From Patescibacteria group bacterium (GTDB lineage Bacteria; Patescibacteriota; Saccharimonadia; UBA4664; SCTI01), in contig SCTI01000001.1 in the NCBI GenBank assembly GCA_004297735.1, positions 190,435 to 254,434 on the forward strand: a DNA stretch of 64,000 bases, read 5' to 3'. Shown in pieces: positions 8,406 to 9,921 of the stretch (positions are counted from its first letter, which is position 1; each line of letters starts with the position of its first letter). A model generated the notes under the pieces. It ran no database searches, was not told the DNA's origin, and was given only the letters and a program-made list of their open reading frames with translations. Position numbers and translations under genes: made by a program.

Positions 8406-9182
8406 ATGCAGGAAGTTCAGACGCTGGATCCGCAGAAGATCGACTTCGACCCCTATCGCCTGCAGGCCCAGGTGTACGACGCGCTTCATACGGCGCTGAG
8501 GGACTACAACGCTGAAGCCCATGAGGTGATGCAGCTCATTGCCAAGTACGGCAATGGGGGCAAAACGCTGCTAGACGTGGCTTGCGGTACCGGCCTCCAC
8601 CTGCAGCATTTTCGCCCCTCGTATAGAGTCGTGGGGCTGGACCGCAGCTCTGCGATGCTGGACCGGGCTGCGATGAGACTTCAACACGTCGAGCTAGCAC
8701 AGCGCGATATGCGCAACTTCGACCTGGACGGCCGTCGGTTTAGCGCGGTAACCTGTCTGTGCAGCTCAATCGGGCACATGCAGAGCCTCGAAGACCTGAG
8801 TGACGCGATCGAGTGCATGGCAAAGCACCTGGAGCCGGGCGGCGTTTTGGTGCTGGAACCGTGGTACACGCCATACACTTGGCTTGACCGCCAGCAGCCG
8901 GCTGTGGTCTGGTCGGGGGACGGCTCGGTCGTTCGGGTGACGCTTGCCAGCTACGTGAAGAAGGATGAGCGTACCGAAGTTGAACACGCTCTACTGCAGA
9001 TGCACCACCACATGGGGCACCCGCTGGAGACCGGCTACTTCATCTCGCAGTTCTTGACGTCGCTGTTCACCGACGAGCAGTACGAGGAGGCGATTGAGCG
9101 TGCTGGCCTGAAGCTTGTGTATGAGTCCGCCGGCATCAACGCCAGCAGTCACCCTGTCTACATCGGCATCAACCCGCGGTAA
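8406..9182 (+). CDS. Class I SAM-dependent methyltransferase (high-GC)
   Basis: 258 aa. SAM-binding motif I LLDVACGTGLHLQ. About 62% GC. Resembles small-molecule or sugar N-methyltransferases of high-GC Gram-positives (from memory, unverified). Confidence 0.75.
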   Translation: MQEVQTLDPQKIDFDPYRLQAQVYDALHTALRDYNAEAHEVMQLIAKYGNGGKTLLDVACGTGLHLQHFRPSYRVVGLDRSSAMLDRAAMRLQHVELAQRDMRNFDLDGRRFSAVTCLCSSIGHMQSLEDLSDAIECMAKHLEPGGVLVLEPWYTPYTWLDRQQPAVVWSGDGSVVRVTLASYVKKDERTEVEHALLQMHHHMGHPLETGYFISQFLTSLFTDEQYEEAIERAGLKLVYESAGINASSHPVYIGINPR

Positions 9183-9218
9183 AAGCTGATGTAGTACCCC
9201 GATCGGTTGGTTTTTACA

Positions 9219-9242
9219 GCCGGTCGGGGGCAACGGAATTAT
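9219..9242 (+). repeat. 24-nt repeated element GCCGGTCGGGGGCAACGGAATTAT (copy 1 of 3)
   Basis: Near-identical copies at 9829-9852 and 11233-11255. Copies 1 and 2 extend to about 90 bp of imperfect direct repeat that includes GTCTACATCGGCATCAA. Confidence 0.7.
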
Positions 9243-9357
9243 CTTTACGACCTTAAGCTTTAGCTCGCAAATTGCATTATCGTAAAAAGACTGTATTATA
9301 TGTGGCGAGGCGAGCGTGGGCTCGTTTTAATTTTGTTCTTCGACAGACGGAGTTGCT

Positions 9358-9726
9358 ATGCGACGGCATTTTCGTAGCGAAGCCGGCTTCACACTGATCG
9401 AGCTGCTGGTGGTCGTGCTGATCATTGGCATTCTCGCGGCAATTGCTCTCCCGACCTACCAGAACCAGAGCAACAACCGCAAAAAGGCCGAGGCTGCATC
9501 AGCCGAGAAGAAAAAGGCCGCTCAACGCGAGCAAATGAAGCTCAACGGTGTCAAGTCGATCACCCGCTACAAGCAAGTGGTGATGATTCGGCTCGACGGG
9601 TCGAATACTGTGCCTTCGGCGCGATACCTCCACAACGTCTGCGGTCGCTCGGGGGTGGATGACATCACGCCGATCGTGACAGGCACCGACCCGGCTACAA
9701 CCCGCATTGTGGTGTTGTGCCGCTAA
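9358..9726 (+). CDS. Prepilin-type N-terminal cleavage/methylation domain protein (type IV pilin or pseudopilin-like)
   Basis: 122 aa. Leader MRRHFRSEAG followed by FTLIELLVVVLIIGILAAIALP, the class III signal peptide. High GC. Confidence 0.7.
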   Translation: MRRHFRSEAGFTLIELLVVVLIIGILAAIALPTYQNQSNNRKKAEAASAEKKKAAQREQMKLNGVKSITRYKQVVMIRLDGSNTVPSARYLHNVCGRSGVDDITPIVTGTDPATTRIVVLCR

Positions 9727-9828
9727 GACTGAGGACAACGGCTCAGCGCCAACGGGCGCGGCGTCTACATCGGCATCAAGAACTCCTAGCGGTTTTCGGA
9801 TACCTCGGCCGGTTGCTCGTTTTGGGCA

Positions 9829-9852
9829 GCCGGTCGGGGACAACGGAATTAT
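9829..9852 (+). repeat. 24-nt repeated element (copy 2)
   Basis: GCCGGTCGGGGACAACGGAATTAT. Preceded at 9760-9786 by GTCTACATCGGCATCAAgaactcctag, a duplicate of the methyltransferase 3' end (…VYIGI…). Confidence 0.7.
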
Positions 9853-9921
9853 AATTTTGCACACACGTTATTTGAGTTTAAAGAGCGTATACTATAAGCA
9901 TCGCCAAATAAAGGACTTATT

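What the first reader, a model, noticed from the sequence alone, without database searches (positions are those of the whole stretch)
8406..9860. High-GC methyltransferase plus prepilin cassette with ~90-bp imperfect direct repeats and a duplicated gene 3' end
The last codons and downstream sequence of the methyltransferase (…GTCTACATCGGCATCAAcccgcggtaa … CGGTTGGTTTTTACAGCCGGTCGGGGGCAACGGAATTAT, 9157-9242) recur after the prepilin ORF (GTCTACATCGGCATCAAgaactcctag … GCCGGTTGCTCGTTTTGGGCAGCCGGTCGGGGACAACGGAATTAT, 9761-9852). The roughly 500-bp prepilin-like gene is therefore bracketed by direct repeats, as after a duplicative insertion or recombination. A third copy of the 24-nt core lies at 11233-11255. 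Both genes are about 60-62% GC, unlike the backbone. The methyltransferase is driven by an AT-rich near-consensus promoter.
Basis: seen in the sequence. Interest (0 to 1): 0.6.

Follow-up and report, generated by a model that had tools for sequence, protein, structure and literature searches.

The report
Leftover gene end beside a pilin
The repeat around the small pilin gene is real, but its second copy is the leftover tail of an older, different methyltransferase gene that was overwritten in a gene-swapping hotspot next to a tRNA gene; the event is ordinary, although each copy ends in a hairpin plus an 8-base motif that also follows tRNA genes across this bacterial group.

Summary
Window 9122-9242 and 9730-9852 form an imperfect direct repeat (89/127 identical, E 2e-13), and a degenerate third core lies at 11233-11255.

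Copy A is the true 3' end of the intact TylM1/DesVI-like methyltransferase. Copy B is not a duplicate of it. It is the relic 3' end of a different allele ("MTase-B", ...NGRGVYIGIKNS*). It is 80% identical (E 3e-25) to the 3' end, hairpin and junction of an intact 239-aa methyltransferase. In relative L130 that gene sits directly upstream of the same VOC/PhnB-like gene, with no pilin present.

The stretch between tRNA-Gln and that gene differs in every relative examined. The pilin module (promoter, conserved leader, ORF) shows 4-5 times less synonymous divergence than flanking genes. This fits recombinational replacement of MTase-B by [MTase-A + pilin], not target-site duplication. No recombinase gene is present in the window.

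Each copy ends in a strand-specific hairpin with compensatory changes, 5 nt, then GGAATTAT. The same 8-mer directly follows CCA of this genome's tRNAs and of tRNAs across Saccharimonadia. I infer a transcript 3'-end module.

The recombination footprint itself is ordinary. The trailer motif is the unexpected part.

The parts
7311..7385 (+). tRNA-Gln(UUG), the fixed left anchor of the variable locus
   Evidence: ARAGORN and Rfam (65.8 bits). It is 92.7% identical to the tRNA-Gln of L004. Two independent assemblies of this locus (the Logan contig of this genome, and L130) break inside or at this tRNA.
7386..7393 (+). GGAATTAT trailer directly after the CCA of tRNA-Gln, the same 8-mer that ends both repeat copies
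   Evidence: The same motif follows tRNA-Glu (from 54025, minus strand), and GGACTTAT follows tRNA-Leu. It is lineage-wide.
7405..7947 (+). DUF3800 gene, low GC (40%), variable cargo. Its start codon lies 12 nt after the trailer motif.
   Evidence: Pfam PF12686, E 2.3e-13. GC. It is absent from L004, L129 and L130.
8116..8317 (+). Frameshifted relic of the 3' end of an HSDR_N_2-like gene, inside an apparently non-coding 458-nt gap
   Evidence: tblastx against L130 1098-1301 gives 62-70% amino-acid identity in two different frames. The DNA alignment runs through the stop codon (A5). There is no intact ORF here.
8320..8348 (+). Sigma-70-like promoter match upstream of MTase-A (TTGATA-17-CATAAT with TG)
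   Evidence: This is a consensus match only.
8406..9182 (+). MTase-A: an intact class I SAM methyltransferase of the TylM1/DesVI-like type
   Evidence: Pfam Methyltransf_25/23/11. PDB DesVI 3bxo at E 3.9e-38 and TylM1 3pfg at E 2.7e-36, both full length. The closest homologue is only 45% identical (L003).
9122..9242 (+). Repeat copy A: the last 20 codons of MTase-A and its stop, a hairpin (arms 9197-9209 and 9217-9229), the linker GCAAC, and GGAATTAT (9235-9242)
   Evidence: (13-bp stem; -29.1 kcal/mol for the 61-nt stretch 9185-9245, z -5.1).
9272..9357 (+). Pilin promoter (TTGCAT-16-TATTAT, 9272-9299) and a near-invariant 5' leader with a terminator-like hairpin (9307-9328)
   Evidence: Read from the sequence, the terminator scan, and alignment A6 of 5 genomes, which is almost invariant from the -10 element to the start codon.
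9358..9726 (+). Type IV prepilin-like gene (122 aa, G|FTLIE). The ancestral in-frame stop TGA survives at 9730-9732.
   Evidence: Pfam N_methyl E 2.5e-8 and TIGR02532. Homologues are 64-78% identical. Homology to the pilin modules of L003-L006 ends at 9732.
9730..9852 (+). Repeat copy B: the relic 3' end of a second allele, MTase-B (about 9738-9789, reading ...LSANGRGVYIGIKNS, stop TAG 9787-9789), a hairpin (arms 9803-9818 and 9824-9839), the linker ACAAC, and GGAATTAT (9845-9852). The junction with the pilin module lies at about 9733-9737.
   Evidence: 16-bp stem; -35.4 kcal/mol for the 66-nt stretch 9790-9855; translation; 80% to L127 MTase-B; 98/122 to L130 2178-2299, E 3e-25.
9922..10827 (+). 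VOC/PhnB-like gene (3-dmu-9_3-mt domains), the conserved right-hand neighbour of the relic
   Evidence: Pfam E 1.1e-70. Orthologues at 75-78% identity lie in the same locus in L003, L129 and L130; L004 and L005 also carry the gene there.
11233..11255 (+). Degenerate third junction core (3' arm plus CAACGTAATTAT) between the divergent DUF2200 and DUF5907 genes
   Evidence: It has no stable fold (z +1.06).

Best explanation
The window comes from a Saccharimonadia (Patescibacteria/CPR) genome. The stretch between tRNA-Gln and the VOC/PhnB-like gene is a hypervariable islet whose content differs in every relative examined. Shown: repeat copy A is the genuine 3' end of the intact methyltransferase (MTase-A) plus its downstream stem-loop. 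Repeat copy B is the leftover 3' end (last ~17 codons and stop) plus stem-loop of a different, diverged allele (MTase-B). In relative L130, MTase-B is intact and lies directly upstream of the same VOC gene with no pilin. Inferred: DNA carrying [MTase-A - hairpin - pilin] overwrote all but the tail of the resident MTase-B. The right-hand joint is illegitimate and lies 1-5 nt after the pilin's original stop codon. The likely route is homology-facilitated illegitimate recombination after natural transformation. An alternative with the same outcome is a deletion between pilin and a once-adjacent MTase-B. The two copies look like a flanking duplication only because both derive from homologous gene ends. 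Inferred function today: each copy ends in a stem-loop, 5 nt, then GGAAUUAU, acting on the sense transcript. It defines or protects the 3' ends of the MTase and pilin mRNAs, and the relic serves the pilin in place of its lost native hairpin. GGAAUUAU is also the conserved sequence right after CCA of tRNAs in this lineage. The module therefore probably uses the same processing or termination machinery as tRNA 3' ends.
For: The repeat is real. Copy B against L130 2178-2299 gives 98/122 identities (E 3e-25). The match covers the codons for ..NGRGVYIG(V/I)KNS, the stop, about 10 nt after it, the hairpin and G(G/T)AATTAT. In L130 this is the end of an intact 239-aa MTase lying 170 nt upstream of the orthologous VOC gene. 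P0004 (L127) ends GRGVYVGIKNS* and is 80% identical to the relic over 46 nt, with mostly third-position differences. Copy A against copy B is only 70%. The left flank is also L130-like, with a frameshifted HSDR_N_2 relic at 8116-8317 upstream of the MTase. Locus content varies between relatives. L129 has a 127-aa membrane protein only. L130 has HSDR_N_2 plus MTase-B. L004 has the pilin plus a sigma-like gene. L003 has an MTase plus the pilin. L005 has a GT2 gene, the pilin and a 274-aa gene. In L004, L005 and L006 the pilin has its own hairpin plus GGAATTAT about 25 nt after the stop. In the window, homology to those modules ends at 9732. Pilin dS is 0.40 against more than 1.5 (saturated) for the flanking VOC and MFS genes. 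No recombinase is found among the window's ORFs of 150 aa or more. For the hairpin, 7 modules align as one family with a 13-bp helix 97.6% paired. Two pairs change on both sides (A-U<->G-C, C-G<->U-A). The 8 modules folded carry 1-4 G-U pairs each, so the + strand folds 4-18 kcal/mol better than the - strand in all 8. GGAATTAT follows CCA at tRNA-Gln and tRNA-Glu, and GGACTTAT follows tRNA-Leu. Of the 80 listed loci, 49 are Saccharimonadia/Patescibacteria, several per genome. Among tRNAs in those loci that were not used to select them, 12/32 carry the motif with at most 1 mismatch, against 0/21 in other phyla. Saccharibacteria are naturally competent (abstract of PMC10187176, seen).
Against: No donor genome with exactly [MTase-A - pilin] was found. 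The closest MTase-pilin pair (L003) is 45% and 64% identical. The left crossover cannot be located, and one-step replacement cannot be told apart from insertion followed by deletion. All relatives are metagenome contigs of unknown exact phylogeny. The low pilin dS could partly reflect codon bias in a highly expressed gene (GC3 70-73% in all five genomes). The perfectly conserved 17-mer spans 5 codons with no synonymous change, which is odd for a decaying relic and could hint at a DNA- or RNA-level constraint. The RNA function is inferred from sequence only. The hairpins lack a U-tract and were not called terminators. The third core has no hairpin. There is no transcript data.
Confidence: 0.75

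Rival explanations
1. This would be a duplicative insertion. The pilin unit inserted into the 3' end of the methyltransferase by a site-specific or transpositional mechanism that duplicated about 120 bp of target (an attL/attR-like pair), and the copies then diverged.
For: Direct repeats bracket a single small gene at 607-610 bp spacing. Two perfectly conserved blocks of 17 nt and 13+12 nt could be crossover cores. The locus adjoins a tRNA gene, a classic integration site.
Against: The copies are only 70% identical, whereas copy B is 80% (about 90% in its coding part) identical to another allele's end in L130, with the same downstream neighbour. There is no integrase or transposase in the unit or among the window's ORFs of 150 aa or more. 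The MTase-pilin adjacency also exists in L003 without any downstream relic. The pilin's native 3' hairpin, present in L004, L005 and L006, is missing, which indicates truncation rather than clean insertion.
Confidence: 0.07
2. This would be an integron-like or otherwise recombinase-driven cassette array anchored at tRNA-Gln. Each gene would be a cassette ending in a folded recombination site (hairpin plus GGAATTAT), and the repeats would be those sites.
For: Single-gene modules are each followed by a member of one imperfect-hairpin family, after at least four unrelated genes (MTase, pilin, the 274-aa gene, and a different hairpin after GT2). Homology between genomes often starts or stops at GGAATTAT. 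Three junction cores lie in direct orientation after the tRNA's own GGAATTAT.
Against: No IntI or other recombinase lies near the array or elsewhere among the window's ORFs of 150 aa or more. The modules carry their own promoters. There are no RYYYAAC/GTTRRRY core sites in the repeats (read from the sequence). The helix relies on G-U pairs that exist only in the sense RNA. GGAATTAT follows tRNAs in general, so it is not a cassette-specific site. Copy B contains coding sequence of another gene.
Confidence: 0.08
3. The two copies would be independent instances of a dispersed repeat (REP/MITE-like) or a generic terminator. The upstream similarity to the methyltransferase would then be coincidence.
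For: The hairpin+GGAATTAT family recurs in relatives. One unrelated Saccharimonadia genome carries a strong hairpin followed by GGAATTAT (L015).
Against: There are only three copies in 64 kb, all within 2.1 kb. GTDB representatives and JGI metagenomes gave 0 hits for the longer core. About 0.96 Mb of sequence scanned, mostly other Saccharimonadia loci, holds essentially no further copies. The upstream similarity is in frame, ends at the same stop position, and matches real MTase C-termini.
Confidence: 0.05

Closest known systems
Homology-facilitated illegitimate recombination, or allelic replacement with insertion, in naturally transformable bacteria (described for Acinetobacter and Streptococcus pneumoniae; from my own knowledge, not tested here)
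   Same: Foreign or variant DNA replaces a resident segment, and one joint falls outside homology. A truncated remnant of the resident gene is left next to the import, and no recombinase gene is involved. Saccharibacteria are naturally competent (PMC10187176 abstract).
   Different: The event is reconstructed from comparison with metagenome contigs. The left anchor and the microhomology at the joint could not be resolved. A two-step insertion then deletion gives the same end state.
tRNA-adjacent genomic islands and islets
   Same: The locus lies directly 3' of a tRNA gene. Its content differs between relatives, its cargo has atypical GC, and assemblies break at the tRNA.
   Different: No integrase is present. 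There are no direct repeats derived from the tRNA body. Only the 8-nt trailer motif is shared, and that motif follows tRNAs in general in this lineage.
Integron gene-cassette arrays (attC sites)
   Same: Short single-gene modules are separated by a family of imperfect hairpin-forming repeats in one orientation.
   Different: There is no IntI and no R''/R' core sites. The modules have their own promoters. The hairpin is supported as RNA (G-U pairs) rather than as folded single-stranded DNA.
Rho-independent terminators and protective 3' stem-loops (REP-like stabilisers)
   Same: A GC-rich 11-16 bp stem-loop sits 15-40 nt after the stop codon on the sense strand, conserved by compensatory change.
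   Different: There is no U-tract. Instead a fixed spacer of about 5 nt (NNAAC) is followed by GGAAUUAU. The scan did not call these sites terminators.
tRNA-like processing signals at mRNA ends (tRNA punctuation in mitochondria, plant mitochondrial t-elements; from my own knowledge)
   Same: A stable helix is followed, at nearly the distance of discriminator+CCA, by the same sequence that follows genuine tRNAs. This suggests shared 3'-end machinery.
   Different: The hairpins are simple stem-loops, not cloverleaves or recognisable acceptor/T-arm mimics. No cleavage data exist, and no such system is described for Patescibacteria in the library searched.

Membership tests
Target-site or att duplication by a mobile element | Flanking direct repeats are (near-)identical copies of one target sequence | tested here: not met
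   The copies are 70% identical. Copy B is closer to another allele (80%, E 3e-25).
Target-site or att duplication by a mobile element | A recombinase or transposase is encoded in or next to the unit | tested here: not met
   The unit holds only the pilin ORF. No integrase or transposase Pfam hit occurs among the ORFs tested: the locus genes and 40 further window ORFs of at least 150 aa.
Integron cassette array | An adjacent IntI-type tyrosine recombinase with attI | tested here: not met
   The left flank is RecR-DHH-CysS-AI-2E-tRNA-Gln, syntenic with L004 and L129.
Integron cassette array | attC with inverse core RYYYAAC and core GTTRRRY flanking an imperfect palindrome | tested here: not met
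   Reading 9183-9245 and 9790-9855 shows neither motif at the module ends. The helix contains G-U pairs valid only as sense RNA.
Integron cassette array | Mostly promoterless cassettes | tested here: not met
   The pilin has the conserved TTGCAT-16-TATTAT. The MTase has TTGATA-17-CATAAT.
Rho-independent terminator | A GC-rich stem-loop on the sense transcript | tested here: met
   Stems of 13 and 16 bp, z about -5, with covariation.
Rho-independent terminator | A U-tract immediately 3' of the stem | tested here: not met
   The stem is followed by GCAACGGAAUUAU or ACAACGGAAUUAU. The scan did not report these sites.
Dispersed REP/MITE-type repeat | Many copies scattered through the genome | tested here: not met
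   There are 3 copies, all within 9219-11255 of the 64 kb. Collection scans gave 0 hits. The rest of the 273-kb contig was not available.
tRNA-adjacent genomic island | Lies at a tRNA 3' end and is variable among relatives | tested here: met
tRNA-adjacent genomic island | An integrase, and direct repeats derived from the tRNA 3' end | tested here: not met
   No integrase is present. Only the 8-nt trailer is shared, and it also follows other tRNAs.
Type IV (pre)pilin | An N-terminal class III signal with G|FxxxE and a hydrophobic helix | tested here: met
   The sequence reads MRRHFRSEAG|FTLIELLVVVLIIGILAAIALP. Pfam PF07963 E 2.5e-8; TIGR02532 E 1e-7, above its cutoff.
Type IV (pre)pilin | Assembly into a pilus by PilB/C/D machinery | not testable with these tools
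   No pilus machinery gene was seen among the window ORFs tested. The rest of the genome is unavailable.
TylM1/DesVI-type sugar N,N-dimethyltransferase | Full-length sequence similarity to solved members | tested here: met
   3bxo E 3.9e-38 and 3pfg E 2.7e-36, covering residues about 21-254.
TylM1/DesVI-type sugar N,N-dimethyltransferase | An aminosugar-nucleotide substrate and its binding residues | not tested
   No structural or active-site comparison was made. No NCBIfam equivalog reached its cutoff.

The most novel reading that the evidence does not exclude
In Saccharimonadia, GGAAUUAU placed 4-6 nt after a stable helix would be a dedicated RNA 3'-end signal, used for cleavage or termination. 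It would be used by essentially all tRNAs and copied by a small family of portable hairpin modules that 'punctuate' accessory genes in hypervariable islets. The same modules, shared between unrelated cassettes, would supply the short homology that lets competent cells swap cassettes such as the pilin without any dedicated recombinase.
Probability: 0.25. Interest if true: 0.6.

Novelty: new member of a known kind. Interest (0 to 1): 0.4.

Why it matters
The repeat itself is a recombination scar. It documents allele replacement and cassette turnover in a tRNA-adjacent islet of an uncultivated, naturally competent CPR lineage. It also shows that a surface pilin module has been exchanged more recently than the backbone diverged. 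This is relevant because type IV pili mediate host attachment in Saccharibacteria (PMC9894109, title and abstract seen).

The by-product may matter more. A conserved 8-nt tRNA trailer, GGAATTAT, occurs across Saccharimonadia, and I found no description of it in the literature searched. It is reused after mRNA hairpins. Together these give a concrete, testable handle on RNA 3'-end formation in a phylum whose RNA processing is essentially unstudied.

Tried and rejected
- **Core scans.** An exact or degenerate 24-mer core scan of GTDB representatives gave 0 hits. This lineage is represented almost only by Logan assemblies.
- **Known RNA families.** Rfam at gathering and at permissive thresholds found only tRNAs. 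This covered the repeat region, the pilin leader, the MTase leaders and other hairpin+GGAATTAT sites. A mir-49 hit at E 0.04 is chance.
- **Literature.** Searches for the trailer motif or for Saccharibacteria terminators found nothing relevant.
- **L005 274-aa gene.** I tested whether this gene, which carries an MTase-type hairpin, is a methyltransferase. It shows no similarity and no Pfam hit.
- **Promoter element.** I considered GGAATTAT as a promoter element and rejected it. Its distance to downstream -10/-35 elements varies, and after tRNA-Gln it lies 12 nt before a start codon.
- **DNA uptake sequence.** Rejected, because the 8-mer occurs only 7 times in the 64 kb.
- **Assembly artefact.** Unlikely, because an independent Logan assembly has the same gene order.
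- **Failed look-up.** An exact-protein look-up for a mid-window ORF failed, probably because of a start-codon difference.
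Full report
**1. Observation**

Gapped blastn aligns window 9122-9242 with 9730-9852 at 89/127 identities (70%, E 2e-13). The repeat finder recovers the two ungapped blocks at 78% and 80% identity and 607-610 bp spacing. The 17-mer GTCTACATCGGCATCAA and the 24-mer core occur nowhere else in the 64 kb, and shuffled sequence gives none.

A third, partial core (GCCGGTC-CGGACAACGTAATTAT) lies at 11233-11255. 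It has no 5' arm and no stable fold.

The GC claims hold in softened form:

| Feature | GC | GC3 |
|---|---|---|
| Methyltransferase | 60.4% | 77.6% |
| Pilin | 57.7% | 73.2% |
| Window overall | 51.7% | |
| 54 window ORFs, mean (sd) | | 56.5% (7.3) |

A TTGATA-17-CATAAT site precedes the methyltransferase.

**2. The genes**

- ORF 8406-9182 is a class I SAM methyltransferase. Its closest solved relatives are the sugar N,N-dimethyltransferases DesVI and TylM1 (E about 1e-38 to 1e-36, full length).
- ORF 9358-9726 is a 122-aa type IV prepilin with the G|FTLIE signal.
- The source is an NCBI MAG labelled 'Patescibacteria group bacterium'.
- tRNA-Gln lies at 7311-7385. To its left is the core block RecR-DHH-CysS-AI-2E, syntenic with relatives.
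- None of the ORFs tested is an integrase, a recombinase of that kind, or a transposase. These are the locus genes and 40 further window ORFs of at least 150 aa.

**3. Related loci**

The methyltransferase has no close relative; the best is 45% identical. The pilin has four relatives at 64-78% identity. Their contigs, plus two found through the downstream VOC/PhnB-like gene, show that the stretch from tRNA-Gln to the VOC gene is hypervariable.

| Locus | Content between tRNA-Gln (where the contig reaches it) and the VOC gene |
|---|---|
| L129 | one 127-aa membrane protein |
| L130 | two small ORFs, HSDR_N_2, an intact 239-aa methyltransferase |
| L004 | pilin, a sigma-like gene |
| L003 | (contig start) a methyltransferase, pilin, four reverse-strand genes |
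| L005 | a GT2 gene, pilin, a 274-aa gene |
| Window | DUF3800, an HSDR_N_2 pseudogene relic (8116-8317), MTase-A, pilin, copy B |

**4. What copy B is**

Read in the frame of the shared 17-mer, copy B gives ...LSANGRGVYIGIKNS*. Three real methyltransferase C-termini can be compared with it:

- MTase-A ends ...INASSHPVYIGINPR*.
- P0004 ends ...GRGVYVGIKNS*.
- The L130 enzyme ends ...SPNGRGVYIGVKNS*.

At the DNA level, window 9738-9857 matches L130 2178-2299 at 98/122 (80%, E 3e-25). Identity is about 90% across the codons, the stop and the next ~10 nt, and the match continues through the hairpin to G(G/T)AATTAT. In L130 this sequence is the end of an intact gene directly upstream of the orthologous VOC gene.

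Copy B is therefore the surviving tail of a second allele (MTase-B) in its original place, not a copy of MTase-A.

Homology of the window to every other pilin module stops at 9732. That is the pilin's ancestral TGA stop; the window has acquired a TAA two codons earlier. The joint therefore lies at about 9733-9737. The native pilin hairpin seen in L004, L005 and L006 is missing.

**5. History (inferred)**

The simplest account starts from an L130-like resident locus (HSDR_N_2 - MTase-B - hairpin - VOC). It received [MTase-A - hairpin - pilin], which overwrote all but the last ~50 nt of MTase-B and left an illegitimate right-hand joint. A two-step insertion followed by deletion gives the same result.

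Three observations fit this:

- The pilin module is younger than its surroundings. Its dS is 0.40 (window against L004, L005 and L006) and 0.18-0.24 among those three. The VOC and MFS genes give dS above 1.5 or saturated against the window, and 0.82 for the VOC gene between L004 and L005.
- Its promoter and leader are nearly invariant in five genomes. Codon bias may contribute, since GC3 is 70-73% everywhere.
- MTase-B-type genes also travel on mobile elements. P0004 sits in an element with a large serine recombinase, a relaxase-like protein and a T4SS coupling protein next to a tRNA-Glu.

Natural competence of Saccharibacteria is reported (PMC10187176 abstract).

**6. The shared 3' module**

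Seven modules align as one family (A2): window A and B, the L003 methyltransferase, the L005 274-aa gene, and the L004, L005 and L006 pilins.

- The 13-bp helix is 97.6% paired.
- Two pairs change on both sides (A-U<->G-C and C-G<->U-A).
- Sliding the 3' partner by one to three columns drops pairing to 20-54%.
- Each of the 8 modules folded (the seven plus L130) holds 1-4 G-U pairs. The sense strand folds 4-18 kcal/mol better than the antisense strand in all eight. This indicates an RNA-level element.
- No U-tract follows the stem, and the terminator scan does not report these sites.
- The helix is instead followed by about 5 nt (NNAAC) and GGAATTAT.

**7. The trailer motif**

GGAATTAT directly follows CCA of tRNA-Gln and tRNA-Glu in the window. 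tRNA-Leu has GGACTTAT, and the tRNA-Gln of L004 has GGAGTTAT.

I scanned GTDB species representatives for GGTTCRA-N15-CCA-GGAATTAT. Of the 80 listed loci, 49 are Saccharimonadia/Patescibacteria, often several per genome.

Among tRNAs in those loci that were not used for selection, 12/32 carry the motif with at most 1 mismatch within 4 nt of CCA. In other phyla the figure is 0/21, and chance expectation is about 0.2% per tRNA.

After tRNA-Gln the next start codon is only 12 nt beyond the motif. That favours a processing role over termination. I found no description of the motif in the literature searched. Its function is inferred, not shown.

**8. Rivals**

- Duplicative insertion is contradicted by the L130 match and by the absence of any recombinase.
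- An integron-like array is contradicted by the lack of IntI and core sites, by the modules' own promoters, and by the RNA-type helix.
- A dispersed repeat is contradicted by copy number and by the in-frame coding match.
- It remains possible that the shared modules act as portable homology for cassette exchange, because homology between genomes often begins or ends at GGAATTAT.

**9. Verdict**

The feature is real and its origin is explained. It is a recombination scar in a tRNA-adjacent variable islet, which is a known kind of event. The strand-specific hairpin plus tRNA-trailer motif is the unexpected element and deserves experimental follow-up.

Noticed in passing
window 7386-7393; 54018-54025 (- strand); 31985-31992 (- strand); loci L007-L126: GGAATTAT (or a variant with at most 1 mismatch) directly follows the encoded CCA of tRNA genes in this genome and widely across Saccharimonadia. 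Of the first 80 GTDB hits, 49 are Saccharimonadia/Patescibacteria. Among tRNAs not used for selection, 12/32 carry it, against 0/21 in other phyla. No description was found in the literature searched.
   Followed up: partly
window 9292-9357 (hairpin 9307-9328): The pilin 5' leader is almost invariant in five genomes and is more conserved than the pilin ORF. It contains a terminator-like hairpin with a T-run (GCGAGCGTGGGCTCGTTTT), so it may be an attenuator or regulatory leader. It has no Rfam match.
   Followed up: partly
L127 4207-4285; L003 238-320; L130 1424-1500: The methyltransferase genes of L127, L003 and L130 share a conserved leader. It has a long, nearly perfect hairpin (AACGGTTCCTGGTGA...TCACCGGAAACCGTT) followed by GGAGTTCCCCGACA before the RBS. 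It is absent upstream of the window's MTase-A. Rfam gives no credible hit.
   Followed up: partly
window 48637-53386 (- strand), downstream of tRNA-Glu 54026-54100: This is a second tRNA-adjacent islet. It holds a retron-type reverse transcriptase (49307-50296; RVT_1, and PADLOC retron RT models at E about 1e-24) and three ORFs without Pfam hits, two of them with GC3 of 70-76%. The independent Logan contig of this genome starts at about window position 7320, inside tRNA-Gln; its 41.3-kb length puts its other end near 48620, at the edge of this islet.
   Followed up: partly
L127 1-15017: In a relative, an ICE-like element sits next to the orthologous tRNA-Glu and carries an MTase-B-type gene (P0004). 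The element encodes a 571-aa serine recombinase, Replic_Relax, a TrwB/VirD4-like coupling protein, a KAP NTPase and a Y-family polymerase.
   Followed up: partly
window 8116-8317: A frameshifted pseudogene fragment of an HSDR_N_2-like gene (type I restriction R-subunit N-terminal-like domain) is hidden in the 'non-coding' gap between DUF3800 and the methyltransferase.
   Followed up: yes
window 7405-7947: The DUF3800 gene (GC 40%) starts 12 nt after the tRNA-Gln trailer, so it is probably co-transcribed with the tRNA. It has a weak PADLOC match to the DUF3800 effector of type VII retrons (E 2e-5).
   Followed up: no
L015 about 2305 (- strand); L046 about 5242 (- strand); L058 about 5364 (+ strand): Other Saccharimonadia genomes hold non-tRNA structured sequences that end just before GGAATTAT. 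One is a strong hairpin 44 nt upstream of a tRNA-Arg. The others are two similar sequences 0.7-0.9 kb upstream of tRNA-Pro(GGG). None matches Rfam.
   Followed up: partly
window 16599-17360: A heliorhodopsin gene (Pfam E 1.8e-98) lies in the semi-conserved block to the right of the variable islet.
   Followed up: no
window 8406-9726; L003 335-1617; L005 359-2397: The pilin gene is adjacent to a TylM1/DesVI-like methyltransferase in two genomes and to a GT2 glycosyltransferase in a third. This may hint at a link to pilin or surface-glycan modification, which is pure speculation.
   Followed up: no
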